Below, piece by piece: positions 19,860 through 60,320 of a stretch of DNA of 64,000 nt; position 1 is the stretch's first letter, and the number at the start of each line of letters is the position of its first letter. Below the pieces are notes generated by a model. That model did no database searches and was not told the DNA's origin. It was given only the letters and a program-made list of their open reading frames with translations. The DNA is from a virus, in IMG/VR virus record IMGVR_UViG_3300045988_047162; one strand, 5' to 3'. Made by a program: the position numbers and the translations under genes.

Positions 19860-20186
19860 ATGAGCAAGATCAATATGACGGAAAACACCACCAGTAAATC
19901 AACGAACGAACTGTTTATGCGCGTGTTGCAAGTCGAATCACCGGAACTGTTCGACGGAAGCGACGATCAGCCGGTACGAGTAGTCGGCTACGATTATTCG
20001 CCATTCTGCGAAGCAGTCTGCGAAACCTGTGGCGATGACCCCGAAATGCTGACCATCGCATTCGAGACGAAAAGCGGCGAACGTTACAGCGAATACTACG
20101 ACTATTTTGGACTGCCGAACATTTTGGAAGCATTGGGTAAATGGGATAAGCAGTATGGGATGGATAATGAAATAGGGCGGTGTTAA
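19860..20186 (+). CDS. hypothetical acidic protein
   Basis: GGGGAAGGAAG RBS. D/E-rich with Cys pairs (FCEAVCETCGDD). Confidence 0.6.
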   Translation: MSKINMTENTTSKSTNELFMRVLQVESPELFDGSDDQPVRVVGYDYSPFCEAVCETCGDDPEMLTIAFETKSGERYSEYYDYFGLPNILEALGKWDKQYGMDNEIGRC

Positions 20187-20188
20187 GG

Positions 20189-20902
20189 ATGAAGTGGTTC
20201 ACTAGTGACTTGCATTTCGCGCATCCGTTCGTGGCCGCGCTGCGCGGATACGCGCTACCCGGATACGCTAAGGATGCATCGATCAAACAACAAGCCGAAC
20301 ATGAGCATAAGCCGCTCAAGAACTGTGTTGACTGGCGGAAGCATGATGCCGACATCATCCGAAGCATCAACACGTATGTTGGCAAGGAAGACGAACTCTA
20401 CATCTTGGGAGACATCAGTTCCGGCAGCACGTGGAGCGTAGACCAGGCGATAATGCGCATCCAGAATCTACAGGTTCCACGCAAACGCAGACACTTGATC
20501 CTCGGCAACCATGAAATACACAGTTCCAGCCGCACGCTGGAAAAGTTGGCAAGCGTGTTCGGGGAAGTCGGACAAGTCGGATTAACCGACATCACAAGCG
20601 GAGACGGAACCCGAACATATCCAGTATTGCTGAGCCACTACCAATGGCGTGAAGACTTCACGCAAAGCAAACGCCTAGGCGCAGTCTCAACCAATTGGAA
20701 CGCGCCGGAATTGGCTGAATACGCGCTACCACGCATGAACAACACTCTGCTCCTGCATGGTCATACGCACGCGTATGACCCGCTTGAGTTCGGCAGGCAT
20801 CATAATGAGATCAACGTCGGATTGGACGCATGGTGTTTCAAGCCGGTCAACGAAGCCGAATTGGTGGACAATTGGCTACACACTGCGGTGAGCGCCGTCT
20901 GA
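20189..20902 (+). CDS. calcineurin-like metallophosphoesterase
   Basis: SDLHFAH, LGDIS, LGNHE and LHGHTH motifs in canonical order. Confidence 0.8.
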   Translation: MKWFTSDLHFAHPFVAALRGYALPGYAKDASIKQQAEHEHKPLKNCVDWRKHDADIIRSINTYVGKEDELYILGDISSGSTWSVDQAIMRIQNLQVPRKRRHLILGNHEIHSSSRTLEKLASVFGEVGQVGLTDITSGDGTRTYPVLLSHYQWREDFTQSKRLGAVSTNWNAPELAEYALPRMNNTLLLHGHTHAYDPLEFGRHHNEINVGLDAWCFKPVNEAELVDNWLHTAVSAV

Positions 20903-20925: not shown

Positions 20926-20959
20926 GGGGGCGGATTCAAAAACCGCCCCCACTATTTTT
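20926..20959 (+). terminator. rho-independent terminator ending the rightward early/moron operon
   Basis: gggggcgg-attcaaaaa-ccgccccc followed by actattttt. Confidence 0.7.
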
Positions 20960-21083: not shown

Positions 21084-21380
21084 TTAGTCGAAGTCCGACG
21101 GTTCACCATTGACATAGTTCAGAAACTGGTCGAAGGCATATTGCGCGGTATCTTCATACCGGCATGGCTTCGGCTTCGCGTTCTTTTCCTGCTCTTTCTG
21201 CTCTATTAACTGGTCTATCCGGCTTTGCTCGTCACGGTGTTGCCACGCGAGAGGTCTATTGCCCTGAAGTAGGTTCTCCTCCACCGTATATTCATGGCCG
21301 CGATACATATAGTCGAGATAAACCATATGGGCGTCGTATCCGTGCCCGTAGTATTTCCTAACGAATGTCGCTTTCCGCAT
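21084..21380 (-). CDS. hypothetical protein (last gene of the antisense block)
   Basis: AAAGGGG RBS and protein-like composition. Confidence 0.6.
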   Translation of the reverse strand: MRKATFVRKYYGHGYDAHMVYLDYMYRGHEYTVEENLLQGNRPLAWQHRDEQSRIDQLIEQKEQEKNAKPKPCRYEDTAQYAFDQFLNYVNGEPSDFD

Positions 21381-21435
21381 TGTTGCCCCTTTCTTGAGCA
21401 GGAAGCCCCCGCCTCTTGTAAGGCGGGGGAGAATG

Positions 21436-21768
21436 TCACGCTTCTACCAGCTCCCACCGGTCTCCAGTCGCTTCATCGAACTTGCCGAGCTTCAATCCAT
21501 ATGCGGCGAGCAGTTCGTTCGCCCGTTTCTCCAACTCTTCTTCGTTCTCACCGTACACATCTTCAACCACTTCAGCCTCCTGCATGAGATTGCCGTCAAC
21601 GCCTTGCAGGTCGATATACCATTCGCCGTCATGGGTGTCGAACCATACCCCCCTGCCTGTGGTCTTGTCGGCTATGAGAAGCATCTCGTATGCGTCGTTC
21701 GGACGGCGGATGGCGATTGGCTTGACAATGACCTTCGCGCCGGTGGTCCATTCAAGTGCTGTAAACAT
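21436..21768 (-). CDS. hypothetical protein
   Basis: AAAGGA RBS before ATG 21768. Acidic C-terminal helix. Confidence 0.55.
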   Translation of the reverse strand: MFTALEWTTGAKVIVKPIAIRRPNDAYEMLLIADKTTGRGVWFDTHDGEWYIDLQGVDGNLMQEAEVVEDVYGENEEELEKRANELLAAYGLKLGKFDEATGDRWELVEA

Positions 21769-21862
21769 TTTTGTCCTTTCTTTTGCTGACATGATTAGTG
21801 CGCAGGAATCCCGTGGATTCAACCACGGGAGTGTCAAGAAGTTTGGGCGGGTTAGGCCACTT

Positions 21863-22120
21863 CTATCCAACTGCATCGATCTGCTGCCGGAGTTCCTCTA
21901 TCTCATTGGAAAGGATGGCGAGAAATTCCCGGTATTCGTCGAGTTCGACCGCCGCGTCGATGGCTTCGGCCTCCAGTTCGAACCGGCAGTCACCGTCATC
22001 GGTGAATGTCAGATCAGGAAAGTCGAACCATTGCCATTCGCAATCGTTCGGGTCGCCATGCCACCCGTTTTCGGTTTTGGTGAGTGTGTAGTGTTCCGTA
22101 CCTTTGTAGTTGCCGTTCAT
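21863..22120 (-). CDS. hypothetical acidic protein
   Basis: AAGGAG RBS and a coiled-coil-like C-terminus. Confidence 0.55.
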   Translation of the reverse strand: MNGNYKGTEHYTLTKTENGWHGDPNDCEWQWFDFPDLTFTDDGDCRFELEAEAIDAAVELDEYREFLAILSNEIEELRQQIDAVG

Positions 22121-22226
22121 GGTGTACTCCTTTTTAGTCCATGTTTAAAAAGAAAAACGTTGAAAACAAAGGGCGTGACACAATCGACACGCCCTGAAAC
22201 TAAACAATCGAAACCGGCAGACGCGA

Positions 22227-22799
22227 CTAGCGCAATCCGCCGCAAATGTCCTTCACGCCGGTGAGATAATCCAACTCGCCCTCGAAATCATGGCAACTCG
22301 TCGAAAACTCACCATCACGACAGCTTTCATCCGCATAATACGAGAAGTTGACGCAAAGAGGGGAATTAGGGTCGATACCCACACAGCATGCCGAACCATC
22401 CATGAAAACCACCTTGATAGTGTCCTCGGGACACATGCCGGATATGATTTCCGTATCCTTGACGTTCAACCCGTGATTGTAGATCTCACTCGAAAGCTGA
22501 TAAAGATCAATTTCACAGATTAGGTACGCGCTCCGGTCGAGTTCCGTCACATCCACGAACGTATCCGGCTGCGGGCCGTCTTCAGCGAAGTCGCCTTCTC
22601 CGGCCACCATGTCGTTCGCCTGCTCAATGCAGTAATCGACGTCCTCCACAATGTAAGCAAGCTCTGGGCCGTCAACGGTCTTCAACCTGCCGACATCATA
22701 AAAATCAGCAGACCAGTCGAGGCCGTACTGCGTGTTTTCCTCATCCCACTCGCGGATAGAGATTTCCACTGCCTTGCTGTTGTCAATAAGTATAGTCAT
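22227..22799 (-). CDS. hypothetical, strongly acidic, Cys-containing protein
   Basis: 190 aa, visibly D/E-rich with few K/R. Confidence 0.65.
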   Translation of the reverse strand: MTILIDNSKAVEISIREWDEENTQYGLDWSADFYDVGRLKTVDGPELAYIVEDVDYCIEQANDMVAGEGDFAEDGPQPDTFVDVTELDRSAYLICEIDLYQLSSEIYNHGLNVKDTEIISGMCPEDTIKVVFMDGSACCVGIDPNSPLCVNFSYYADESCRDGEFSTSCHDFEGELDYLTGVKDICGGLR

Positions 22800-22879
22800 T
22801 TCAGATACTCTCTTTCCAGCCCCCTTGCTAAAATGAGAGGGCTCTAGTTAGTTAGATTGGTAATAATTACTGAGCAATC

Positions 22880-22950
22880 GAGCCGGATAGCTGCAACTAT
22901 CCGGCTCAACTTATTCGTGAGCGGGCATGGCCGTAAAGACGCATGCCCGC
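22880..22950 (-). terminator. two terminator-like hairpins downstream of the XRE genes
   Basis: gcgggcatg...catgcccgc (22921-22950) and gagccggatag-ctgcaa-ctatccggctc (22880-22907). No clear U-runs. Confidence 0.4.
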
Positions 22951-22959
22951 CCTAGCGGA

Positions 22960-23187
22960 TCACTTAGAATCCGCAGAAGATTCAGAGTCAGAATCATCTT
23001 CCAAAAGTTTGCGAGGATTCTTGACATGCAACGCGTCACAAATACGAATCGCCTTATCAAGCGTCATATTCTCGATAGAATTGACACCATTCTCATAGGC
23101 TCCGATACGTTGTTGAGTAAGCCCTGCCTTGTCGGCGAGCTGTTGTTGCGTCATGCCGCGCTTCAGTCTGAGTTCCCTCATGCCCAT
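22960..23187 (-). CDS. XRE-family HTH regulator with acidic tail
   Basis: LRLKRGMTQQQLADKAGLTQQRIGAYENG is a canonical XRE HTH. GAAGGA RBS, 1 nt after the upstream stop. Confidence 0.75.
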   Translation of the reverse strand: MGMRELRLKRGMTQQQLADKAGLTQQRIGAYENGVNSIENMTLDKAIRICDALHVKNPRKLLEDDSDSESSADSK

Positions 23188-23188
23188 G

Positions 23189-23611
23189 TCAGTATCCTTC
23201 CGTAAGAAAATCCACAGGGTCGCATTGCAACGCCTCAGACAATCGTAACGCCGTCCGCAAATACATTTGCGAAACAGGACGATAACCGGTCTCGAACCAT
23301 GAGATGTTCGGTCGTGCGACACCACTCATGCCAGCCAACTGCGTCTGCGTCAACCCACGCGACAAGCGGATGTTCCTCAAGCCGACGACACCAGCCGCCA
23401 CGCCACCACGCCACACATGCTCATCGGGATACAGGTCCAACACGTTGCAATGCAGTATCCGCGCCAACGATGCCGCCGTGCCCAGAAACATGTTCCGAGC
23501 GTCATCGTCAACCGTCTCATACCGGCTCAACCTCGGCATGTCATAGCCGGTCAACGCGCTCAACTGCTCCAACGTGATGCTCGAACGTTTCCGCAGCTCA
23601 CGCAACCCCAT
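23189..23611 (-). CDS. tandem double-XRE HTH regulator
   Basis: Two HTH units: LRELRKRSSITLEQLSALTGYDMPRLSRYE and LRNIRLSRGLTQTQLAGMSGVARPNISWFETG. AAGGAG RBS. Confidence 0.75.
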   Translation of the reverse strand: MGLRELRKRSSITLEQLSALTGYDMPRLSRYETVDDDARNMFLGTAASLARILHCNVLDLYPDEHVWRGGVAAGVVGLRNIRLSRGLTQTQLAGMSGVARPNISWFETGYRPVSQMYLRTALRLSEALQCDPVDFLTEGY

Positions 23612-23671
23612 GCCACACTCCTTTCCGATCAAAAACACCATATCATCGACGGCTGGGGGACGCCGCCGACA

Positions 23672-23911
23672 TCAATCAATCCAATCCGTATCCCAATCCA
23701 GCATGTCCACTGGAATCATGCAGCCACCGGAACACTGGACGTACAGCCAGGTCGAATAGCCCATGCGAGCCGCCCTCACGCCACGGAACCATTCGCCAAG
23801 CCACTCGCACAGGAGCGACGGCAGCGAACGACGACGCCAGAACGACCTGCCGGACGCATAATCGAACCCATCGTATTCGGCGATAGGGGAGAAGAAGCCA
23901 TGTTTGCTCAC
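23672..23911 (-). CDS. hypothetical Trp-rich protein
   Basis: GTG start in a GTGA overlap after a GGAGGAAAAA RBS. Confidence 0.5.
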   Translation of the reverse strand: MSKHGFFSPIAEYDGFDYASGRSFWRRRSLPSLLCEWLGEWFRGVRAARMGYSTWLYVQCSGGCMIPVDMLDWDTDWID

Positions 23912-24102
23912 TGTTTTTCCTCCTTGGTCCAAGGGATAATCTGATGCAACAGGTACGCCGCCGTCGTCAACTGGTCGTAAGCGGCCAGAATGTAAGCCGA
24001 ATCAGGAGCCTTCCCGGACTCCAATCCAGACAGCAGACGGACAGCCTCAACGGCCCTGTTCGCCGCGTTCGCGCACACGTCGGAATCATGGGCGTCCATC
24101 AC
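23908..24102 (-). CDS. hypothetical helical protein
   Basis: Overlaps the upstream stop (GTG 24102 or ATG 24099). Confidence 0.5.
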   Translation of the reverse strand: MMDAHDSDVCANAANRAVEAVRLLSGLESGKAPDSAYILAAYDQLTTAAYLLHQIIPWTKEEKQ

Positions 24103-24491
24103 ACATGACCCTCGTCATCGGCTTGCGTCCAGAACACATAATCAAGGTCATATTCACGAGACTTCTCGAATTGTTCCCCAATCTCAATCGGCGTCAGACC
24201 AGAAAGCACTTCAGAAGTGAAATCACAATAATCATCGGAACGAGTATTGTCGTGCAGCATGAACACCTGCTCACACCATTCAGGGAACGCTGACCAGAAC
24301 TTACACCACGAATCCTCGGAAACATATTTGGCGAAATCATTGACGCGATAGACACCCTCATAAGGTTCAAACTCACGCTGGTAGAACGGTTGCAAACCCT
24401 CGTTTGCCATGCATTCAACATCGCAGACGACAGCCATGCCAATCGGCTCATCCAACGGCATGGCCTTCAACCCATCAACGGTAATCATCAT
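24099..24491 (-). CDS. hypothetical acidic protein
   Basis: AAAGGAAAGA RBS. D/E-rich. Confidence 0.6.
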   Translation of the reverse strand: MMITVDGLKAMPLDEPIGMAVVCDVECMANEGLQPFYQREFEPYEGVYRVNDFAKYVSEDSWCKFWSAFPEWCEQVFMLHDNTRSDDYCDFTSEVLSGLTPIEIGEQFEKSREYDLDYVFWTQADDEGHV

Positions 24492-24500
24492 TCTTTCCTT

Positions 24501-24683
24501 TCAATCGATACGAAACTCTTCGCCATACTTGACGCAGTGGGCATCCAAATAGGCGTCGAAAAACTCCTGCTCGGAACACGGCGCGAGATTCGCGTGCAAC
24601 AGCTCCCGCAACTCGTCATCCATGAGATTCACAGCGGCCTCATAAGACACGGGACGCCCATCCCGATCAATAACAACACTCAT
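24501..24683 (-). CDS. small acidic protein
   Basis: AAAGGAAAGA RBS. ...AAVNLMDDELRELLHANLAPCSEQEFFDAYLDAH... resembles, from unverified memory, small proteins of conjugative-element leading regions. Confidence 0.55.
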   Translation of the reverse strand: MSVVIDRDGRPVSYEAAVNLMDDELRELLHANLAPCSEQEFFDAYLDAHCVKYGEEFRID

Positions 24684-24699
24684 CGTTCTTTCCTTTCAT

Positions 24700-24963
24700 T
24701 CAGCAGCAGAACTCGTCAGTGAGTTCCACCAGTCTTTTCAACGACGTCCGCATGAGACGCGAACGACAGCCGACACCGGCCAGTTCCAGCCGGTTCACCA
24801 TCGCCACGCGCACGGCCTCTCCGCTACCGACAGTGCAACGCGTCAGAAACCGGCCATCGGCACGCAGAACCGCATCCCGATACGCCTCCGCATCGGCCTG
24901 AGACCTGTGACGGCGCACGCGGATTGCGCCACCCACATATTCGACGGTCCACAACGCGGCCAT
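24700..24963 (-). CDS. hypothetical basic protein
   Basis: ATG lies 1 nt after the upstream stop (TGAcATG). Only this C-terminal portion of the long 24700..25464 ORF is accepted. Confidence 0.45.
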   Translation of the reverse strand: MAALWTVEYVGGAIRVRRHRSQADAEAYRDAVLRADGRFLTRCTVGSGEAVRVAMVNRLELAGVGCRSRLMRTSLKRLVELTDEFCC

Positions 24964-24964
24964 G

Positions 24965-25504
24965 TCAGTCAGCCTCCCCAAGACGGTCGAACATCTTGTC
25001 ATACGCCTTGCGCACAGCCGACAGGCCATTGCGGTACGCGGACATGCGATTCTCAGGAGTCGAAGACACAGCCAGGTCATGCTGCCAGCTAGCCGGAAAC
25101 GCGATATGCTCCAACGTCCCGTCCACATCCGTCTGACGAACCTCGACATGCTGCGGGAACATGGCGTCGAACACCAGCACGCACAGCTCGAACGCCAGCC
25201 GCGTGTCCGCGTCGGCGACATAACGGAAATCATTCTCGGCCAGCCGCCGCGCCTCATCGACGTCGAACGGCAGCGTGGCATACAATGCGACGAACCGTCC
25301 GACCGTCTCGTCATCCAGACCGCCGTCAGCGAAACAGTTTTGCACGACATCGATGAGATTGTCCCGCAAATCGGGCACCAGACCACACGCGCCGCCACGG
25401 ATATACGGCACCTCGTCACGGCTGAAATGCCTCTCGAACCACTGCCAGCACACGTAACCCACATAGCCGGTCAGCTCACGCGGCAGCAAGTTGACGTCGA
25501 TCAT
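24965..25504 (-). CDS. hypothetical protein
   Basis: ATGA overlap with the upstream gene. Protein-like, acidic composition. Confidence 0.6.
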   Translation of the reverse strand: MIDVNLLPRELTGYVGYVCWQWFERHFSRDEVPYIRGGACGLVPDLRDNLIDVVQNCFADGGLDDETVGRFVALYATLPFDVDEARRLAENDFRYVADADTRLAFELCVLVFDAMFPQHVEVRQTDVDGTLEHIAFPASWQHDLAVSSTPENRMSAYRNGLSAVRKAYDKMFDRLGEAD

Positions 25505-25953
25505 CGCGCCACCTCCTCGCCGTTAAGGAAATCAACGAACTTCCGCCGCGCCCCACCATCGGCGTCACAGCCCAGCAAATCACTGCTGATGACGTCATAG
25601 CCGCAGCCGGTAACGAAATAGAAATACCAATCATCGCCACCACGGCTCAGCCAGCACGAACGCACATGCTTGACAAGACCGTCGTAACGGTCGCACTTGA
25701 ACCATTCCGCTAGACCCTCAGCCAGAAGCGAGTCGAAACGGAACCGTCCGACGCAGATTAAGCTGTTCTCCTCATCTTCCACGCGCTCCACGGCCTCGTC
25801 ATCCAGCCTGTCGTCAAGCGAATAGCCAGCCTCAAGCGTCGCCAGATTACGCAGCAGCTCATACGAGTCGATACCGTCGAACGTCTCATGCTCAACGATT
25901 TCATCCGCGTTGAACCAAGTGATTTCCTTATAAATGCAATCGTCGAATTTCAT
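25501..25953 (-). CDS. hypothetical acidic protein
   Basis: AGGGAG RBS. Confidence 0.6.
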   Translation of the reverse strand: MKFDDCIYKEITWFNADEIVEHETFDGIDSYELLRNLATLEAGYSLDDRLDDEAVERVEDEENSLICVGRFRFDSLLAEGLAEWFKCDRYDGLVKHVRSCWLSRGGDDWYFYFVTGCGYDVISSDLLGCDADGGARRKFVDFLNGEEVAR

Positions 25954-26029
25954 GGTATAATCTCCCTTGCAATTAGATTTGATTGATTGATTGCATGGCC
26001 GGTCGCAGTCCTACCTGAGACCGGCACTT

Positions 26030-26386
26030 TCACATTTCCCTTGTGCCGCCCCACGACAGCACCTTGCCGCCGTCAACCAGCACGTAAGACTCACCGGCAT
26101 GATTGCCGACAGCATCAGCCCGCCACTCGCAGATACGCTCGTAGCCGCCAGCCATACTGCCGTCTTCCATGCCGCACTGGGGGATATCCGACAGCGACGT
26201 GTAGCCAGCCAAGTCGGCCTGACCATAGTCAGCCGTCGCATACGTCTCACGCCACCAATTCCATTGCTGTTCAGGCGTCCCATGAGGGTCAGCCACCGGC
26301 ACGGGATTGCACACCGGCGAACACGCCACGGCGAACGCCGCCACACCAGCAGCCAGCAGTCCAGCCAGCTTCACACCCTTACGCAT
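26030..26386 (-). CDS. predicted lipoprotein
   Basis: MRKGVKLAGLLAAGVAAFAVAC: a basic N-terminus, a hydrophobic core and an A-V-A-C lipobox-like motif. GGGAGG RBS. Confidence 0.6.
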   Translation of the reverse strand: MRKGVKLAGLLAAGVAAFAVACSPVCNPVPVADPHGTPEQQWNWWRETYATADYGQADLAGYTSLSDIPQCGMEDGSMAGGYERICEWRADAVGNHAGESYVLVDGGKVLSWGGTREM

Positions 26387-26993
26387 TCCGCTTACCTCCC
26401 TTGGCGGTCTCGATATAACCAGGAAGCTTTTCCACGTCGAAATCCATGTCGCCAGAAACCGGGTCGGCATCATCCCGCCAAGCTTCGAACACGGCATCAC
26501 GGTCAGCTCCATTCAACATGGCGTCAGACACCTCGCCATCGAAGTAATCCCGCAGCCACGCGTCCTCACGCCGCTCGTAATCGGATTCATCCAACACCGG
26601 GTAGTAGCGCCCGTCCTTGATAATCATGTCTATCGCATATTGGACGACGGCCTGATCCGACAGTCCGCCATACCCGTCCGTCAACTCAATCGCATAGCCG
26701 ACACCGCAGAACGCACGCGGCACATAACCGTAGTCCGACAGCCACCGCACGGCAGTCTCAATATTGCTTTCATCTAGCGCGTTATCGAAGTACAGCAGCC
26801 GCGAAGCCCGATACGTGTAATCGTTGAACACAGTGTCGGCCACGCGGATACCCCGCACCCATTCCAGAATGTCCGGCAGCACGTCATCGAACGACGGCAG
26901 ACCAGCGTAGTCGATACCGTCCCACGCGTCACGCAGTTCCTCGTACAAGTCGGCGTCCTCAGCCGTATCCTTGCGAATCCAATGCACATACAT
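26379..26993 (-). CDS. hypothetical strongly acidic protein
   Basis: GAGGAAAAAGAA RBS. D/E/Y/W-rich. Confidence 0.6.
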   Translation of the reverse strand: MYVHWIRKDTAEDADLYEELRDAWDGIDYAGLPSFDDVLPDILEWVRGIRVADTVFNDYTYRASRLLYFDNALDESNIETAVRWLSDYGYVPRAFCGVGYAIELTDGYGGLSDQAVVQYAIDMIIKDGRYYPVLDESDYERREDAWLRDYFDGEVSDAMLNGADRDAVFEAWRDDADPVSGDMDFDVEKLPGYIETAKGGKRNA

Positions 26994-27025
26994 TTCTTTT
27001 TCCTCACTTTCAGATTGATTGATTT

Positions 27026-27691
27026 TCAGCGAGACAACGTCAGAAACAGGTTTGAATACCACAGTTCCAAGTCGAGAGCCTTAAGCGCCCTGCACGCGGC
27101 CGCATAGTCGCCCGAATCCATGCATTCGACAAACTGCTGCGCATAGGCGCACGTCTCAACGTCATCGGAAGATATGAAGTCCAGCAAGTCGTCAAGGCTG
27201 GGCCATGCGCCCTCAGAATCATCGATAGTACATTCCTCATGGCTATACAGGTGCCACGTCATACCGTCGAGATTCCAGCAATCCGCCCCTTTGCCGTTCA
27301 GTATGTCGCCTAACGTCTCAGGCCAATCCATGAACTCGTAATCGGCAATGACGCTCAGGCTTAGATTGTGCGCGTCATACAAGTCGGCCAGCCGTCCCCA
27401 GTCGGCTTCGGCGGAACCGTGGTTGTACACGTCCCATATGCCCTTAATTTCGTCGGCCATATCCTTGTACCCGGACGGCGGCACCGGACTATCATTCCCA
27501 CGCATGTACGCAAGAAGCTCAGGCGACGGCGCTGTGACAACGTCAAGACTGGAACCGTCCAAACCGTCAGGAAACTCAGCGCCATTGTATGAATACAACT
27601 CCAGGTCGCCGCCGCCCCGTTCGGACTCGTGCAAACCATGACGCCCCGCCATGACGTCGTAAAAATCGTCAACGGAATTAAACCCAGACAT
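27026..27691 (-). CDS. hypothetical strongly acidic protein
   Basis: Runs such as DDSEGAWPSLDDLLDFISSDDVE. Confidence 0.6.
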   Translation of the reverse strand: MSGFNSVDDFYDVMAGRHGLHESERGGGDLELYSYNGAEFPDGLDGSSLDVVTAPSPELLAYMRGNDSPVPPSGYKDMADEIKGIWDVYNHGSAEADWGRLADLYDAHNLSLSVIADYEFMDWPETLGDILNGKGADCWNLDGMTWHLYSHEECTIDDSEGAWPSLDDLLDFISSDDVETCAYAQQFVECMDSGDYAAACRALKALDLELWYSNLFLTLSR

Positions 27692-27813
27692 GATTACCCA
27701 CTTTCATAGAGAATGTTGTTCCGCCGTCACATGACGGCATAGTGCGCGGATAGGGAGTCGCACCCTACCAGAACTCACTAGAGCCGCGCCATAGCCCACA
27801 GAGGGCTACAAAG

Positions 27814-28278
27814 TCAGATGAGTTTCAGGAACGAACGCGGTACCACGCGCTCGAAATGGTAAAAATCGTAAGCATCGCCACTATGCGACGTCATGGTGAA
27901 CCCGTTCGCCGTGAAAATGTCGATAATCGTTCCCATGCCGCACGCGTTCGCGTTCATCTCCCAGCCGTAATCGCAACGCTTCAGCCCATATAGCGGCCTA
28001 TCGGAACCGTTGTATGGAATCGACGCATACGTGTGCTTGAATCCACGCCACATGAGAAACGTCTGCCACAACGGCAACTCACGCATGGCTTCATCCACCG
28101 CCGCAGAGAGTTTGTCATACCCACAGCCGGACGCATGGCCGGAACCACGGTCACGCCTGACAGTAACGCCATCCTCGGCCAGTAGTGCGCCAACGGTAGC
28201 GGTAGGGCACATTCCCCACATCGCACTGCGCCGCCATTCCACGCTGATGTTCACAGATAGTTCGATCTTTCCAGTCAT
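27814..28278 (-). CDS. hypothetical protein
   Basis: GAGGTG RBS before ATG 28278. Contains ...GHASGCGYDKLSAAVDEA... Confidence 0.6.
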   Translation of the reverse strand: MTGKIELSVNISVEWRRSAMWGMCPTATVGALLAEDGVTVRRDRGSGHASGCGYDKLSAAVDEAMRELPLWQTFLMWRGFKHTYASIPYNGSDRPLYGLKRCDYGWEMNANACGMGTIIDIFTANGFTMTSHSGDAYDFYHFERVVPRSFLKLI

Positions 28279-28292
28279 AATAAACACCTCAC

Positions 28293-28309
28293 TTGTATTG
28301 TTGACTACA
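28293..28309. repeat. 17-nt motif TTGTATTGTTGACTACA, copy 1 (upstream of 27814..28278)
   Basis: Perfect match to 28640-28656. Contains the dyad TTGTA-N8-TACA(A). Confidence 0.9.
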
Positions 28310-28310
28310 A

Positions 28311-28616
28311 TTAGTTTCGCGTCATGTAGGATTCAAGCCGTGCGACGCATGACTCATCGCCCGGAACCAGATGCATGTCAAGCCACTGCTCAGCCGTGAC
28401 CACGGCGTAACGCTCGCCCAGCTCGCCGTTGCGCTTGACATTGCGGCTGACCACATACACCACGCCGTCAACCCACCTTATGGCGTCGGCATTCCACGCG
28501 ACATCACACGGATCAATGCCATGAGCGTGCTGGAAATTCCACGCGCGATTACGCCGCGCAATCTGCGTAGAACGCATATCCTTGCACCATTGCACGAGAT
28601 TGTCATAATCAGACAT
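28311..28616 (-). CDS. hypothetical protein
   Basis: AGGGGGAG RBS before ATG 28616. Confidence 0.55.
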   Translation of the reverse strand: MSDYDNLVQWCKDMRSTQIARRNRAWNFQHAHGIDPCDVAWNADAIRWVDGVVYVVSRNVKRNGELGERYAVVTAEQWLDMHLVPGDESCVARLESYMTRN

Positions 28617-28639
28617 AGCTCCCCCTTTATTTAATCTTA

Positions 28640-28656
28640 TTGTATTGTTGACTACA
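28640..28656. repeat. 17-nt motif TTGTATTGTTGACTACA, copy 2 (upstream of 28311..28616)
   Basis: Perfect match to 28293-28309. Confidence 0.9.
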
Positions 28657-28660
28657 TAAG

Positions 28661-29095
28661 TCAAACGAGATTGACATAATCACGCCTGACGAAATCCCAG
28701 CCGTGGTCAGTCCATTCGAACGTGTCCACCTGCCCCATAAGGCATGGCGTCAACCAGTCCGATACCGTGTCACATAAAGGCGTGCACTCAACCTTGTAGT
28801 GATACCCGGTATTCGTCTCGCAATACACGGCCGCATGGCGCTTGAATGCATGGACGCGTGTCACGCGCACGTCTGGCATAAAGCCCGAACGGTAGTCAAC
28901 GCTCCGTGACCTGAGCGCGGCAACCCTAAACGCCGCGACGATCATATGCCGCGTTGTTGCATCATCCACCCCGTGAGCCTTAATGATGGGCATTGACGCC
29001 ACATAAAGGCATGACGCGTATACCGGTAGGCTCTCATGTGCCGTCGTAAGACAATCGCGAACGATTTTTACAGCCATTTTTTCGTTGGTATCCAT
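28661..29095 (-). CDS. hypothetical protein (first gene of the antisense block)
   Basis: AAGGGGG RBS and protein-like composition. Confidence 0.6.
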   Translation of the reverse strand: MDTNEKMAVKIVRDCLTTAHESLPVYASCLYVASMPIIKAHGVDDATTRHMIVAAFRVAALRSRSVDYRSGFMPDVRVTRVHAFKRHAAVYCETNTGYHYKVECTPLCDTVSDWLTPCLMGQVDTFEWTDHGWDFVRRDYVNLV

Positions 29096-29555
29096 AATAA
29101 ACCCCCTTAAGGTCTAGTGTTAATTGGTTAATTGCGTGCCACTAGAGGGTATCGCACCCCCTCATGGTCTAAACAGTGGCGAGAGGGGCGCAACCCTTGC
29201 GGATTACGCCCGTGAAGATTTGTTTTTTGGCTAACACCACCCGCAAAGTGGCGCAGGGGCGCATACGCACCCCCTATAGACTTTTAATGTCCGCATAACC
29301 CCCAAACGTAAGACGTTTGTGATCAACCGCCCATAAAGCAATTGACGAGCGCTACAATATGTCTACCCTCGCAACCCGTTACGCCGTGGTTTACAGTCAA
29401 TGCCGCCAACCACGCTCACGCATGGCGAAACATTGACATTGCCACCTATCTATCGGCCTATCCTCATTGGCGGTAGTCTCTCACACTACGCCAAACGTCG
29501 GCGGTACCCCCTTACGAGTTCTCGCGCTCAACATTGTCAATCGAGTTCACGCGCA

Positions 29556-29567
29556 TTGCCTAGGCAA
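29556..29567. repeat. 12-bp palindrome TTGCCTAGGCAA
   Basis: Shares the 10-bp palindromic core TGCCTAGGCA with 29815-29828. Confidence 0.9.
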
Positions 29568-29814
29568 AACCGACACTATCGGCCACGCCCACATAGTGGA
29601 CATTATGCACACACCCCGAAAAACGCCGCCACCTAACCCCCAAAAGGGGGTGAAGCTCAAACTACCGGCCTTCGGTAACACTCTTCATTTTTCAAACACT
29701 CGCAACGCTCACAGACTGGACACTGCGCCTCAGCACAGTGACCAACGTTCCACACATGGCGGTTTCGCAATGCGCTCACTGCGCACCACCTGACTATCTC
29801 AGGTCAGGCTATGC

Positions 29815-29828
29815 GGTGCCTAGGCACC
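29815..29828. repeat. 14-bp palindrome GGTGCCTAGGCACC
   Basis: Second copy of the TGCCTAGGCA core, about 260 bp from the first. Confidence 0.9.
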
Positions 29829-30573
29829 TAACCGCCGCGGCTTCATCTGCCGGTTGCTACAGCCGGTTGCAAGTGGCGCGGTGTAGATATCGCGCTGACC
29901 TTGCTAGGTTGACTGCCTAACCGGTTGTTGGTTATCACTATACACACCAATAATGGTGTAAGCAAATTGAGAAAACAGACCACGGCGAAACGTTGGAACA
30001 GCGCCGTTTTATCGGCGTGTCGCAACATGGGTAGGGGGTAAATGAGACGAAAAAAGAGTTTGAGTAGCACAAGGAAAAATAAAGTCAAGCAAGATACTGA
30101 AATACGGACAAAAAATATTGAGCAAGATAGATATAAATAATAAGGAATACGACACAATGACGCGCATACGTACAACTGTACGAACGAACATTTGTACCAT
30201 CGAACAAACGTTCCAACCGGGGCTGGGGGAGGGTCCTCCGGGTGTGCCCGTCAGGGCCGTCGGGTCAATGGTAGAAATAGTGCGCGCCGTCTGAAAAAGT
30301 CCGCGCATGAAACGTGACATGACAACGACGATGTTGGGTTCACATTGAAATCGTCTTCAGCATACCACGCGACACGCCGTATTCTACGCCGTTTTCATTG
30401 CAACGTTGATGCAACGTTAGGTATGAGTATGCTGTCGCATGTCGGAATGAATTTTGGAGGACGCGTGGCGTCCTTGTGGGTGTCGTTCCGGCAAGCGGTT
30501 CGGTGGTGCTCCTTGTCTCTTGGTTAAGGATTCCGACCGTTGGGACGTTTGTGTTCATAAGGAGCACCGCTAG

Positions 30574-30844: not shown

Positions 30845-31262
30845 CTTTGAGGGTGGATGAATCCCGGAATATAGTGTGTGTGTTTGGATTGTCCGTGAGA
30901 TTTTGTTCATCCTCGTTTCTTGTGCCGGTCCCACCCGGTGCCGCCTATATGGCTGCGCCATTTGTTTTTGGGGCTGACTTGCAATCCTGTTGGCACAGCC
31001 TTTTGGTTGCCGGGTTCGATTCCCGAGGTTTGCTCTAGGTTTCATGGGGTAGCTGCCTGTGATACCGATGGCATTGCTCGAATATCCCCGCTGGAACATG
31101 TGGGGGATAAGAGGCTCCCTGCCTTAATCAGGCGGTTGATGACCGAAGGGGAGGCACGGCCAAACGGGTGCATAGATGTTTCACGTTCCTTGCCGTTGGT
31201 GGTAAAGCCCATTCCACCATGCCGAACGTCTTTCCGACTTGGACGTTAACTAAGTCGGGTAT

Positions 31263-58887: not shown

Positions 58888-59058
58888 TTGGCTCAGATTC
58901 CAGCCGACGCGAACGAGGTCATCGACCAGCTCTCGCAACAGATCGGCACTCTCAACAAGCAAATCGCAATCCTGACCAGTCAGCTCAACGCGGCCATGAA
59001 ATTGATTCCCGCCGACGTGCTCGAAAGCGTGAAGGGGGATACGCATGCAGAGGATTAA
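58888..59058 (+). CDS. possible 56-aa coiled-coil protein
   Basis: TTG start after an AAGGAG RBS. Sequence ...VIDQLSQQIGTLNKQIAILTSQLNAAMK... Overlaps cassette 1 by 14 nt. Below the ORF-track size cut-off. Confidence 0.4.
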   Translation: MAQIPADANEVIDQLSQQIGTLNKQIAILTSQLNAAMKLIPADVLESVKGDTHAED

Positions 59059-59512
59059 CTATTTCACCAATCCGAATTTCACCGGCCCATTCGCCGACGT
59101 AAACATTTCCGGTGAAGTGAAGGCATCATATAACGCCGACACCAAGCAGCTGAACATCTATGGCAACAATGGCGGTTATGGTTTCAATCTCACCGTGCCG
59201 AAAAACGCGGCACTCGTATTCGCCTGCTTCCTCTGGACGGAACACGACAAAAATCCGAAGCCGCTCACGGTGTACAGTCTCGAGTCAAGCGACACCAAGC
59301 CTATCGCTTATGCCACCGTCTCCCAGAATGCGAACAATTTGCTCCTGCGATTCAACTCCACCGGCAGTGGCCGGATACGTGTCGAATTCTATCCGAACGG
59401 CAGTGCCGCGAATATCGCCAATCCGATTTTGGAATTGGCCGACACTTACGATAAAGCCGTGGGGGGGGGGCTTCCGGGCTTCTTCTCCGGCGACACGATG
59501 CCACGCGCATAG
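59045..59512 (+). CDS. receptor-binding-like cassette 1 (ends ...GLPGFFSGDTMPRA)
   Basis: Paralogous C-terminus shared with the next two genes. N-terminus INYFTNPNFTG. Contains a G10 tract. Confidence 0.65.
   Translation: MQRINYFTNPNFTGPFADVNISGEVKASYNADTKQLNIYGNNGGYGFNLTVPKNAALVFACFLWTEHDKNPKPLTVYSLESSDTKPIAYATVSQNANNLLLRFNSTGSGRIRVEFYPNGSAANIANPILELADTYDKAVGGGLPGFFSGDTMPRA
59461..59470 (+). repeat. G10 homopolymer inside cassette 1
   Basis: Ten consecutive G flanked by t and c, read in frame as Gly-Gly-Gly. Lies 14 codons before the stop. Confidence 0.95.
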
Positions 59513-59539
59513 GAGCGTCCGTCGGGCGGGTGATGTCCG

Positions 59540-59908
59540 ATGATAATCACGAACCTATGCCCGAGCCCAACCTCGACCATCACCTTGAGAGCCAACAATT
59601 GGGTGCATCTCACGACCGTTCCGAGCGTGAGATATATGACATATTGGGTCAGTTTCGATATGAACGTCACAGGCGGCACTGTCTCGATTATCGGAACACA
59701 GGGCGAATTCAGCGCACGCCAACGTGTCAGCTACATGACGTACGTCGACAATTCCGGTCCGCTATCAGTGAATTATTCCGTCAAGTCAGGCAGTCCGACC
59801 GTCACCGTGACAAATATACTCCTCTGCACGTTGGCCGAGTATCAGGCGAACAAGACCCTGCTCGGCGGCATCGGATATTTCACCGGGGATACGATGCCGC
59901 GCGCCTAA
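59540..59908 (+). CDS. receptor-binding-like cassette 2 (ends ...GGIGYFTGDTMPRA)
   Basis: Shares the C-terminal motif. Confidence 0.6.
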   Translation: MIITNLCPSPTSTITLRANNWVHLTTVPSVRYMTYWVSFDMNVTGGTVSIIGTQGEFSARQRVSYMTYVDNSGPLSVNYSVKSGSPTVTVTNILLCTLAEYQANKTLLGGIGYFTGDTMPRA

Positions 59909-59927
59909 CCCCTTTGGGGGTGGTGGC

Positions 59928-60320
59928 ATGACTCCCATCGTTAATCACTGCGTCATGCCGAAAGACGGTGTGAGCGTCAAGACGACGAACACGACACCAT
60001 CGGACATCACCTTCACGGGGTTGACGGCGGGCGTGAAATACCATGTGAGCGTCGTCTGTTACATGCTGTCCACGAGTGGCGACAATCCGCGCTTGCGTCT
60101 CACCACCAATGGCAGCGATAGTGGGCTGGTCACTTCGAATGGTCGCGTGGATTACGTCTTCACCGCCGCCAGCACCACTCACGGCATTCTCGTCGGTCTG
60201 AACAATTGCACGGTCAATCTGAGCAAAGGCTTGTGCGTGCCTCAAGACCAGTGGCAGCAGCTCGTCTCGTTGGGATTGCCGGGCAATTATTTCGATGGCG
60301 ACACCATGCCAAAAGATTAA
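59928..60320 (+). CDS. receptor-binding-like cassette 3 (ends ...GLPGNYFDGDTMPKD)
   Basis: Shares the C-terminal motif. Confidence 0.6.
   Translation: MTPIVNHCVMPKDGVSVKTTNTTPSDITFTGLTAGVKYHVSVVCYMLSTSGDNPRLRLTTNGSDSGLVTSNGRVDYVFTAASTTHGILVGLNNCTVNLSKGLCVPQDQWQQLVSLGLPGNYFDGDTMPKD

What the first reader, a model, noticed from the sequence alone, without database searches (positions are those of the whole stretch)
21084..29095. 8-kb antisense block of 19 orphan genes wedged between the early and packaging modules
Between the strong terminator that closes the rightward early operon (20926-20959) and the tRNA/packaging region, 19 tightly packed ORFs all read on the minus strand. Every other module except immunity reads the other way.

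Many of the ORFs are translationally coupled:
- TGAcATG at 23187/23189 and at 24963/24965.
- ATGA at 25501-25504.
- GTGA at 23908-23911.
- An 8-nt overlap at 26379-26386.

I recognise no replication, morphogenesis or lysis family in any product. What is recognisable is regulatory or surface-related: two XRE genes holding three HTH domains, and one lipoprotein. Several products are conspicuously D/E-rich. The 60-aa product of 24501-24683 resembles, from unverified memory, small proteins found in leading regions of Gram-positive conjugative elements.

An autonomous, self-regulated orphan operon at this position is a good candidate for a counter-defence, superinfection-exclusion or lysogenic-conversion island. 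It may be a system not yet described.
Basis: partly seen in the sequence, partly recalled or inferred. Interest (0 to 1): 0.75.

Follow-up and report, generated by a model that had tools for sequence, protein, structure and literature searches.

The report
Anti-CRISPR-bearing accessory gene island in Bifidobacterium prophage
An 8-kb backwards-reading stretch of a Bifidobacterium prophage is a patchwork of swappable accessory genes: one is a recognisable anti-CRISPR (AcrIC5 family) followed by regulator genes, and the rest are real but unknown, unusually acidic proteins, which makes them a candidate list for new counter-defence genes and not a new kind of system.

Summary
Nineteen minus-strand genes fill 21084-29095 of a temperate Bifidobacterium siphophage. 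They lie between a strong early-operon terminator and a conserved 1.5-kb non-coding stretch, tRNAs and the packaging genes. Eighteen of the 19 show purifying selection.

The 60-aa product of 24501-24683 is a clear AcrIC5-family type I-C anti-CRISPR (Pfam 78.5 bits; PDB 7YHR, E 3e-12). Public databases already label the identical protein "AcrIC5-like".

This gene is a precise 195-bp insertion/deletion flanked by a 22-nt stop-RBS-start repeat. Two XRE genes with three HTH domains follow four genes further on, then a -52 kcal/mol double hairpin. That is the layout of an acr-aca operon.

The other 16 products match nothing in Pfam, PHROGs, NCBIfam, PADLOC or PDB. Deep searches for three of them found only close relatives. 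They are significantly more acidic than the rest of the phage proteome.

Among 39 relatives with 97%-identical late genes, several sub-blocks are present or absent independently. The antisense layout itself is conserved. Some relatives carry CRISPR-repeat-like units in the same island.

Verdict: this is a mosaic counter-defence and accessory island made of several transcription units. It is not one operon and not a new system. It is a new member of a known kind, of moderate interest.

The parts
20926..20959 (.). GC-rich hairpin where the rightward early operon and the leftward block converge. It is a terminator with a T-run on the + strand.
   Evidence: -22.1 kcal/mol (z -5.1) on +; -21.6 kcal/mol (z -4.1) on -.
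21084..21380 (-). g01, 98 aa, orphan. Present in few relatives.
   Evidence: 73% identical to a hypothetical protein of Bifidobacterium phage BP1. No dN/dS comparators.
21406..21429 (-). 10-bp GC hairpin after g02, a likely terminator.
   Evidence: -26.1 kcal/mol, z -2.8.
21436..21876 (-). g02, up to 146 aa (start uncertain), acidic orphan.
   Evidence: dN/dS 0.39.
21863..22120 (-). g03, 85 aa, very acidic orphan (pI 4.05).
   Evidence: dN/dS 0.34.
22160..22195 (-). Intrinsic-terminator-like hairpin plus U-tract after g04.
   Evidence: -17 kcal/mol, followed by UUUGUUUUC.
22227..22799 (-). g04, 190 aa, pI 4.05, apparently a single-gene unit. Its N-terminal 92 aa are about 49% identical to hypothetical proteins on Bifidobacterium megaplasmids.
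   Evidence: (dN/dS 0.23).
22876..22952 (-). Double hairpin (14-bp and 16-bp stems) right after the HTH genes. It ends the acr-containing unit and marks a boundary of conservation among relatives.
   Evidence: -52.3 kcal/mol, z -7.0; presence in relatives drops from 97% to 52% or less across it.
22960..23187 (-). g05, 75 aa, XRE/HTH_3 regulator and Aca candidate. The most widespread gene of the block in relatives.
   Evidence: E 2e-13.
23189..23641 (-). g06, 150 aa, with two HTH domains. Aca candidate.
   Evidence: HTH_31 E 3e-16, 2 stretches.
23672..23911 (-). g07, 79 aa, orphan.
   Evidence: called as a 79-aa gene in L099; dN/dS 0.39.
23908..24102 (-). g08, 64 aa, orphan.
   Evidence: dN/dS 0.38.
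24099..24491 (-). g09, 130 aa, pI 4.05, orphan immediately downstream of the anti-CRISPR. Relatives carry several alleles at 60-99% identity.
   Evidence: dN/dS 0.27.
24485..24506 (-). Copy 1 of the 22-nt stop-RBS-start junction repeat flanking the anti-CRISPR gene.
   Evidence: D20, 91% identical copies.
24501..24683 (-). g10, 60 aa, pI 4.3: AcrIC5-family anti-CRISPR (type I-C).
   Evidence: PF22147, E 4e-22, 78.5 bits against a cut-off of 27, full length. (PDB 7YHR, E 3e-12). (identical to WP_039198157.1, which UniRef names 'AcrIC5-like domain-containing protein').
24680..24701 (-). Copy 2 of the junction repeat.
   Evidence: 21 loci without g10 have one junction copy; 22 loci with g10 have two copies, 195 bp apart.
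24700..24963 (-). g11, 87 aa, basic (pI 9.6), orphan.
   Evidence: dN/dS 0.38.
24965..25504 (-). g12, 179 aa, orphan. Two allelic forms (about 100% and about 50% identity) across most relatives.
   Evidence: exhaustive HMMER against 1.84 billion representatives gives 18 hits, nearly all fragments or variants of the same family (45-99% identity).
25501..25953 (-). g13, 150 aa, acidic orphan. A weak HEPN-like hint was rejected.
   Evidence: weak hits; 58; Rx6H motif not conserved; pLDDT 70.5; no fold match.
26030..26386 (-). g14, 118 aa, lipoprotein (MRKGVKLAGLLAAGVAAFAVA|C). Candidate superinfection-exclusion or surface factor.
   Evidence: lipobox pattern; phrog_19904, unknown function; present in most relatives.
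26379..26993 (-). g15, 204 aa, pI 4.1, orphan.
   Evidence: cluster members are 204 aa; dN/dS 0.22.
27026..27691 (-). g16, 221 aa, pI 4.05, orphan.
   Evidence: 21 homologues, all 70% identical or more. (AF2 pLDDT 53, unusable).
27692..27813 (-). Structured 122-nt gap containing a 16-nt palindrome, GCCGTCACATGACGGC. It is a cassette boundary.
27814..28287 (-). g17, 157 aa, orphan. Together with g18 it is a presence/absence cassette.
   Evidence: dN/dS 0.18.
28311..28664 (-). g18, 117 aa (or 101 aa from ATG 28616), orphan.
   Evidence: dN/dS 0.18.
28661..29095 (-). g19, 144 aa, orphan and first gene of the block. Relatives carry several alleles at 50-100% identity.
   Evidence: dN/dS 0.32.
29096..30573 (.). 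1.5-kb stretch with no convincing gene, conserved in 92-100% of close relatives. Presumed divergent control region between the block and the tRNA/late genes.
   Evidence: No Rfam hit.

Best explanation
The block is the phage lineage's accessory, arms-race island. It is a conserved leftward-reading scaffold made of about five transcription units. Individual genes are gained and lost within it by recombination at short conserved gene junctions and at structured gaps.

The central unit runs at least from g13 to g05 and has the layout of an acr-aca operon. It carries an AcrIC5-family protein. By homology, that protein is a small acidic inhibitor that stops type I-C Cascade from binding target DNA. 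Two XRE regulators with three HTH domains follow four genes downstream. By analogy with Aca proteins, they would repress the unit's promoter once enough inhibitor is made. A large double hairpin then ends the unit.

The other products are lineage-restricted orphans under purifying selection. Ten of the 19 block products are strongly acidic (pI below 4.7). I infer that several are inhibitors of host proteins, DNA mimics among them.

The lipoprotein g14 is a separate kind of accessory gene and possibly acts in superinfection exclusion.

**Shown:** gene reality, AcrIC5 family membership, the indel and mosaic behaviour, the HTH domains, the hairpins, and the acidity.

**Inferred:** anti-CRISPR activity of this particular homologue, an Aca role for g05 and g06, and anti-defence roles for the orphans.
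For: **AcrIC5 membership.**
- Pfam PF22147: 78.5 bits against a cut-off of 27, over the full length.
- About 50% identity to the solved AcrIC5 structure 7YHR, E 3e-12.
- The protein is acidic, pI 4.33.

**Published function of the family.**
- AcrIC5 blocks CRISPRi, meaning Cascade DNA binding, and works across divergent I-C systems (PMC7913775).
- A different AcrIC5 homologue from a B. pseudocatenulatum prophage inhibited type I-C in vivo (PMC10651486).

**Host.**
- The host genus is Bifidobacterium (adolescentis, catenulatum, pseudocatenulatum).
- Type I-C is the commonest CRISPR subtype in B. pseudocatenulatum, at 42% of strains (PMC7264901).

**Operon layout.**
- g13 to g05 are separated by -4 to +30 nt.
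- HTH genes sit at the 3' end.
- A double hairpin of -52 kcal/mol, z -7, follows them.
- This meets AcaFinder's guilt-by-association criteria.

**Accessory behaviour.**
- g10 is an exact 195-bp indel between duplicated 22-nt junctions: 21 loci lack it and 22 carry it.
- Among 39 relatives with 96.8%-identical late genes, these sub-blocks are present in only part of the set: 24.5-24.75 kb in 54%; 25.0-26.0 kb in 51-66%; 27.75-28.75 kb in 41-56%; 21.5-22.75 kb in 38% or fewer.
- An antisense gene run follows the Metallophos gene in the 41 full-length relatives anchored on it, by a crude caller with two interrupted runs.

**Theme of the island.** Four relatives carry a promoter-like element plus two CRISPR-repeat-like units in the same block. 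One unit ends in GCGTGGATTGAAAT, the type I-C repeat end.

**Orphans.**
- They are real genes (dN/dS 0.17-0.43).
- They are significantly more acidic than the rest of the proteome.
Against: - Only 1 of 19 genes has a demonstrated family link to counter-defence. Guilt by association and acidity are weak evidence.
- The window's AcrIC5 variant has not itself been tested.
- No repeated operator or inverted repeat was found for the HTH proteins. No promoter could be placed with confidence: promoter-like sites are no more frequent than in shuffled sequence.
- The early region of these phages is also mosaic, so mosaicism alone does not mark the block as special.
- Structure prediction gave nothing. 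The g13 model (pLDDT 70.5) has no fold match, and the g16 model (pLDDT 53) is unusable.
- Timing of expression, in the lysogen or early in infection, is unknown.
Confidence: 0.6

Rival explanations
1. The block is mainly a lysogenic-conversion and superinfection-exclusion island. It is expressed from the prophage for the benefit of the lysogen. Lipoprotein g14 blocks DNA entry of incoming phages. The HTH proteins act as extra immunity or exclusion regulators. The anti-CRISPR is a passenger.
For: - g14 has a clean lipoprotein signal. With g05 and g12 it is among the most widely kept genes of the block in relatives.
- The block reads opposite to the lytic modules, as prophage-expressed genes often do.
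- Some relatives carry DUF4160/DUF2442 pairs and a tyrosine recombinase in the same block.
Against: - g14 resembles no known exclusion lipoprotein. Its only hit is phrog_19904, of unknown function.
- PADLOC finds no defence component.
- An anti-CRISPR helps the phage, and it also protects a self-targeted lysogen, so its presence does not separate the two readings.
- There is no expression data.
Confidence: 0.2
2. The block is a set of early host-takeover genes unrelated to immunity. Small acidic proteins would inhibit host transcription, replication, nucleoid proteins or cell division. The anti-CRISPR is one accessory among them.
For: - The products are small, acidic, lineage-specific and under purifying selection, a profile also typical of host-takeover genes.
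- They lie next to the early operon.
- There are no defence-related hits apart from g10.
Against: - Takeover genes central to the lytic cycle would be expected to be kept. Here most genes are dispensable among near-identical relatives.
- Relatives place CRISPR-repeat-like units in the same island.
Confidence: 0.15
3. The block is an integron-like cassette array. A site-specific recombinase shuffles promoterless cassettes at structured recombination sites.
For: - The small genes share one orientation and show presence/absence polymorphism.
- Structured intergenic hairpins sit at cassette boundaries.
- A tyrosine recombinase lies within the equivalent block in 45 of 80 relatives.
Against: - The window's block has no recombinase, and the relatives' recombinase has no homologue in the window.
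- The one junction resolved at base level (g10) is a plain direct repeat of stop-RBS-start sequence. That fits homologous or illegitimate recombination, not an attC-like hairpin.
- The hairpins differ from one another and no recurring site was found.
Confidence: 0.04

Closest known systems
AcrIC5 (Pseudomonas; PDB 7YHR; Leon et al. 2021, PMC7913775)
   Same: g10 matches the family model over its full length and is about 50% identical to the solved protein. Both are about 60 aa, acidic and carried by a mobile element.
   Different: The host is an actinobacterium. The gene sits inside a long, translationally coupled gene run and is not next to aca1. Activity of this variant is untested.
acrIC5-racrIC1 locus of a B. 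pseudocatenulatum AF18-2AC prophage (Camara-Wilpert et al. 2023, PMC10651486)
   Same: Same host genus, same Acr family, and a prophage location. Type I-C inhibition was shown experimentally there.
   Different: That homologue starts MSTIIDQD, so it is a different variant. It is followed 11 nt later by an RNA anti-CRISPR. In the window the next gene starts 9 nt after g10, and no repeat-like unit exists anywhere in the block. Repeat-like units do occur elsewhere in the block of four relatives.
acr-aca operons and anti-defence gene clusters of mobile elements (AcaFinder criteria, bioRxiv 10.1101/2022.08.29.505781; the Aca repressor concept is from my own knowledge of Stanley et al. 2019)
   Same: An Acr homologue and small HTH proteins lie on one strand with short gaps. 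The HTH genes are at the 3' end and are followed by a terminator-like structure.
   Different: There are two HTH genes with three domains. The unit is long, at nine genes or more. No operator was identified. Neighbouring units hold proteins over 200 aa.
Leading-region anti-defence islands of conjugative plasmids, and first-entering early regions of phages such as T7 gene 0.3 and the T5 pre-early region (from my own knowledge)
   Same: Small, same-strand, often acidic counter-defence genes are clustered. g04 shares a domain with Bifidobacterium megaplasmids.
   Different: The order of DNA entry is unknown here. The idea that the block lies near the end that enters first rests only on the HNH-terminase arrangement. 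Two contigs that start at window 30269 are the only other hint.
Prophage superinfection-exclusion lipoproteins such as Ltp of Streptococcus phage TP-J34 (from my own knowledge)
   Same: g14 is a small prophage-encoded lipoprotein.
   Different: There is no sequence similarity to any annotated family, and the gene is not in the lysogeny module.

Membership tests
AcrIC5 anti-CRISPR family (PF22147) | Sequence match to the family model above the curated cut-off, over the full length | tested here: met
   78.5 bits against a cut-off of 27; residues 6-57 match profile positions 2-53 of 53. E 3e-12 to PDB 7YHR.
AcrIC5 anti-CRISPR family (PF22147) | Small (about 60 aa), acidic protein encoded on a mobile element | tested here: met
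   60 aa, pI 4.33, D+E 23%. Prophage context.
AcrIC5 anti-CRISPR family (PF22147) | The host lineage carries type I-C CRISPR-Cas | not tested
   Literature only: I-C occurs in 42% of B. pseudocatenulatum strains and 23% of the genus (PMC7264901). The host strain of this window is unknown.
AcrIC5 anti-CRISPR family (PF22147) | Inhibits type I-C interference by blocking Cascade-DNA binding | not testable with these tools
   Shown for the Pseudomonas protein and for another Bifidobacterium homologue, not for this variant.
Aca (anti-CRISPR-associated) regulators | HTH protein of about 150 aa or less, in the same same-strand, short-gap gene run as an Acr homologue | tested here: met
   g05 is 75 aa (HTH_3, E 2e-13). 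g06 is 150 aa (two HTH stretches), which sits exactly at AcaFinder's size limit of under 150 aa. Gaps from g10 to g05 are 30 nt or less. Criteria as stated.
Aca (anti-CRISPR-associated) regulators | Binds inverted repeats in the acr promoter and represses it | tested here: inconclusive
   No recurring palindrome was found. Single palindromes lie at 27723-27738 and 25968-25995. The promoter is not located.
RNA anti-CRISPR (Racr, solitary repeat unit) | A CRISPR-repeat-like sequence and hairpin next to acr genes | tested here: not met
   None is present in the window's block. Candidates are present in relatives L030, L072, L078 and L079.
Known anti-phage defence systems (PADLOC) | A match to a component model beyond generic HTH | tested here: not met
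   only HTH-type hits, plus one Csx1 hit at E 0.004.
HEPN RNase (for g13) | Conserved Rx4-6H motif and a four-helix HEPN fold | tested here: not met
   The motif residues vary among homologues. The model is mixed alpha/beta and has no HEPN match.
Integron-like cassette array | An adjacent integrase and recurring attC-like sites at cassette ends | tested here: not met
   There is no recombinase in the window's block. The g10 junction is a plain direct repeat. No shared site was found.
Bacterial lipoprotein (for g14) | Positively charged N-terminus, hydrophobic stretch, and a lipobox ending in Cys | tested here: met
   MRKGVKLAGLLAAGVAAFAVAC matches a PROSITE-style lipobox pattern written from memory.

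The most novel reading that the evidence does not exclude
Several of the acidic orphans are founding members of new anti-defence protein families aimed at Bifidobacterium immunity, for example restriction-modification, type I-C, I-E or II CRISPR-Cas, or Wadjet. The best candidates are g09 next to the anti-CRISPR, g04, g15, g16 and g12/g13. On this reading the antisense island is a lineage-wide hotspot where protein and RNA anti-CRISPRs and other inhibitors are exchanged gene by gene at conserved stop-RBS-start junctions.
Probability: 0.35. Interest if true: 0.7.

Novelty: new member of a known kind. Interest (0 to 1): 0.45.

Why it matters
Bifidobacteria are key gut commensals and probiotics. 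They carry many defence systems and are hard to engineer. No counter-defence gene in this island apart from AcrIC5 has a recognisable family.

This island gives a short, well-delimited list of real, selected, lineage-specific genes, sitting beside a recognisable anti-CRISPR. Natural presence/absence variants exist among near-identical phages and could guide functional tests.

If some of the orphans prove to be inhibitors, they would be new tools for controlling CRISPR or restriction in bifidobacteria. [quoted passage not shown]

Tried and rejected
**1. HEPN reading of g13.** Two weak hits, Pfam Csm6 HEPN (E 0.008) and PADLOC Csx1 (E 0.004), coincide with an RYDGLVKH motif. I rejected it for two reasons: the motif is not conserved in 14 homologues, and the AF2 model has no HEPN match.

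**2. RNA anti-CRISPR next to g10, as in the published Bifidobacterium locus.** It is absent. g09 starts 9 nt after g10, and no I-C repeat-like sequence lies in the block.

**3. Repeat-like hairpin at 59155-59187 (-).** It ends in GATTGAAAC, but it lies antisense inside a conserved coding gene of a three-paralogue family. I treat it as chance.

**4. Sequence search of all 16 unknown products against PDB chains.** They were concatenated into one query, and there were no hits at E up to 5.

**5. Deep homologue searches for g16, g13 and g12.** Only close relatives from the same phage group were found, so there were no deep alignments for structure prediction. The g16 model is unusable (pLDDT 53).

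**6. Host identification by scanning species-representative genomes with the Metallophos protein.** This found nothing. The host came from the cluster look-up instead.

**7. A physical genome end near the block.** Two contigs start exactly at window 30269. No contig ends at 30268, and 11 contigs read through the site. This remains unresolved.

**8. Length-based ORF maps of relatives.** These were too noisy in this G+C-rich DNA. I replaced them with a codon-usage score, which still misses some genes.

**9. Operators for the HTH proteins.** No recurring palindrome was found.

**10. Integron-like reading.** Rejected; see the rival explanations.

Full report
**What the window is**

The window is a temperate siphovirus of a Gram-positive, roughly 55% G+C host.
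- The left end holds an ImmA/IrrE-type peptidase reading leftwards.
- A rightward early region follows, with RecT, SSB and a Metallophos phosphoesterase ending at 20902.
- The block under study comes next.
- After it lie 1.5 kb with no convincing gene, four tRNAs, an HNH gene, the terminase, portal and capsid genes, a GH25/LysM lysin, and a leftward integrase at the right end.

[quoted passage not shown] The only GenBank phage records with near-identical DNA are unannotated human faecal contigs.

**Checking the observation**

All 19 minus-strand ORFs exist at the stated coordinates.

The hairpin at 20926-20959 is strong and carries a T-run on the + strand.

I compared each gene with its homologues in about 150 related loci. 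Pooled dN/dS is 0.17-0.43 for 18 genes, so they are real coding genes. This includes the small or doubtful g07, g08 and g11. g01 has no informative comparator.

Small corrections:
- g15 probably starts at 26993 (204 aa).
- g07 starts at GTG 23911.
- g18 may start at 28616.

The products are significantly more acidic than those of the early and late modules. The comparison gene set was called crudely.

**What can be identified**

Pfam, PHROGs, NCBIfam and PADLOC leave 16 of the 19 products without any significant match. A concatenated search of those 16 against all PDB chain sequences also finds nothing.

Three products are recognisable.
- g05 (75 aa) and g06 (150 aa) are XRE-type regulators with one and two HTH domains.
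It scores 78.5 bits against a cut-off of 27 over the whole model. It is about 50% identical to the crystallised AcrIC5, E 3e-12.

The identical protein is WP_039198157.1, which UniRef already names "AcrIC5-like domain-containing protein".

What is published about the family:
- AcrIC5 was found in Pseudomonas as an acidic inhibitor that blocks Cascade-DNA binding. It has orthologues in Actinobacteria and acts across divergent I-C systems (PMC7913775).
- It is predicted to cover the PAM-binding site of Cas8c (bioRxiv 10.1101/2025.06.06.658234).
- A different AcrIC5 homologue from a B. pseudocatenulatum prophage inhibited type I-C in vivo, together with an adjacent RNA anti-CRISPR (PMC10651486).
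- Type I-C is the commonest CRISPR subtype in B. pseudocatenulatum (PMC7264901).

g14 carries a clean lipoprotein signal.

**Anatomy of the block**

The block is not one operon. On the minus strand:
- A 14-bp plus 16-bp double hairpin (-52 kcal/mol, z -7) follows the HTH genes.
- A canonical hairpin plus U-tract follows g04.
- A 10-bp GC hairpin follows g02.
- Structured gaps follow g17 and g14.

The likely units are g19-g17, g16-g14, g13-g05, g04, g03-g02 and g01.

The unit that holds the anti-CRISPR ends with the two HTH genes and a strong hairpin. That is the layout of acr-aca operons and meets AcaFinder's association criteria.

I could not place promoters. Promoter-like sites are no more frequent than in shuffled sequence. 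I also found no recurring operator.

**Behaviour among relatives**

At least 100 viral contigs share the flanking Metallophos gene at 84-99% identity. Forty-seven share the HNH gene.

In the 41 full-length relatives anchored on the Metallophos gene, an antisense gene run follows that gene. The gene caller is crude and shows two interrupted runs. The gene content differs widely between relatives.

Among 39 relatives whose late genes align as one 96.8%-identical block, discrete pieces of the island are present in only part of the set:

| Piece (kb) | Genes | Present in |
|---|---|---|
| 24.5-24.75 | g10 | 54% |
| 25.0-26.0 | g12-g13 | 51-66% |
| 27.75-28.75 | g17, g18, part of g19 | 41-56% |
| 21.5-22.75 | g02-g04 | 38% or fewer |

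The last figure is partly limited by how far the fetched flank reaches.

The boundaries fall at the structured gaps.

The g10 case resolves to the base. The gene is flanked by a 22-nt direct repeat made of stop codon, ribosome-binding site and start codon. Twenty-one loci without g10 have exactly one copy, joining g11 to g09. Twenty-two loci with g10 have two copies 195 bp apart. Two loci have a different 1.4-kb insert at the same point.

So genes are exchanged one at a time at conserved junctions. The block is not swapped as a whole. The early region is also mosaic, so mosaicism is a property of these phages and not of the block alone.

**The orphans**

Deep searches confirm that they are restricted to this lineage.
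- g16 has 21 homologues, all 70% identical or more.
- g13 has 44 homologues; the full-length ones are at least 63% identical.
- An exhaustive HMMER scan of 1.84 billion representatives with g12 gives 18 hits, nearly all fragments or variants of the same family.

A HEPN hint in g13 did not survive. The g16 model is too poor to use.

g04's N-terminal domain recurs on Bifidobacterium megaplasmids, between a metallophosphoesterase gene and a pentapeptide-repeat gene. Both gene types also occur in this phage. This points to a shared pool of mobile-element accessory genes.

Twenty representatives of the roughly 30 block gene clusters seen only in relatives were scanned against Pfam. Fifteen have no match. 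The five that match are a tyrosine recombinase, a weak HTH, a DUF4160/DUF2442 pair, and a weak sliding-clamp-like hit.

**Support from relatives for the counter-defence theme**

Four relatives carry a promoter-like TGTGATACAAT inside the same antisense block. It is followed by two back-to-back CRISPR-repeat-like units. The second unit ends in GCGTGGATTGAAAT, the type I-C repeat end. These are candidate RNA anti-CRISPRs of the kind described in PMC10651486. None is present in the window.

**Conclusion**

The best reading is a mosaic accessory island whose one identifiable function is counter-defence. It holds an AcrIC5-family anti-CRISPR in an acr-aca-like unit. Around it sit real, acidic, lineage-specific genes that are reasonable candidates for further inhibitors, plus a lipoprotein that may serve exclusion.

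The concept of anti-defence gene clusters, and the one identified gene family, are already known. The AcrIC5 annotation already exists on the identical protein. What is new is the delimited candidate list, the base-level cassette junction, and the family-wide view of the hotspot.

I rate the island a new member of a known kind, with moderate interest.

Noticed in passing
L072:12590-12736 (-), L079:12586-12733 (-), L030:13928-14070 (-), L078:2882-3009 (-): Inside the equivalent antisense block of four related phages sits a promoter-like TGTGATACAAT. Two adjacent CRISPR-repeat-like units follow: GTCGCACCGGAATGGCGAGTGTCCGGTTGAAAT and ACCTTCGGCTCAATCCGAAGCGCGTGGATTGAAAT. The second ends like a type I-C repeat. 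These are candidate RNA anti-CRISPRs and are absent from the window.
   Followed up: partly
L099:10001-10270 (protein P0007); also P0005: A chimeric 89-aa ORF joins the first 52 or so residues of g13 to the C-terminal two-thirds of the AcrIC5 homologue. It apparently arose by a deletion that removed g12 and g11 at a short shared DDE-coding stretch.
   Followed up: partly
GenBank MG945373.1:3784-3969 and KT264799.1:3729-3899 (hits H5, H10): AcrIC5-like sequences (44-56% identity to g10) occur in unannotated stretches of Microviridae/gokushovirus genomes from pig and human faeces. Small ssDNA phages may therefore carry this anti-CRISPR family.
   Followed up: no
window 31048-31228 (+): A sub-threshold match to the manA RNA motif (34 bits against a gathering score of 55, E 9e-6, full model length) lies between the phage tRNA genes.
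   Followed up: no
window 29096-30573, especially 30040-30170 and 30269: This 1.5-kb stretch has no convincing gene and is conserved in 92-100% of close relatives. It contains an A+T-rich segment. Two independent viral contigs (L134, L141) begin exactly at window 30269, which hints at a physical genome end. Other contigs read through the site, so this is unresolved.
   Followed up: partly
L057:12024-12887 (-) and 44 other relatives: A 287-aa tyrosine recombinase (Phage_integrase, E 3e-23) lies inside the equivalent antisense block in 45 of 80 relatives. It has no homologue in the window.
   Followed up: partly
L157 (pMP7017, NZ_KM406416.1:183050-186914); window 22227-22799, 20180-20902, 2078-2770: On Bifidobacterium megaplasmids, a homologue of g04's N-terminal domain sits between a metallophosphoesterase gene and a pentapeptide-repeat gene, downstream of an LPD28-domain gene. 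The phage also carries a Metallophos gene and a pentapeptide/DUF5758 gene. This suggests a gene set shared between phage and plasmid.
   Followed up: partly
L099:12227-12754; L025:5186-5446; L034:12278-12532: A DUF4160 plus DUF2442 gene pair follows the HTH genes in the block of about 13-14 relatives. It is absent from the window.
   Followed up: no
window 59045-60320 (+): Three tandem paralogous genes of 122-155 aa lie between the tail genes and the lysis genes. All three end in GDTMPRA or GDTMPKD.
   Followed up: no
L079, last ~35 bases of the locus (contig IMGVR_UViG_3300045988_099143): The contig end carries a Nextera adapter sequence (CTGTCTCTTATACACATCT...), which is library contamination in a public viral contig. 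The phage sequence stops at about window 30178.
   Followed up: no
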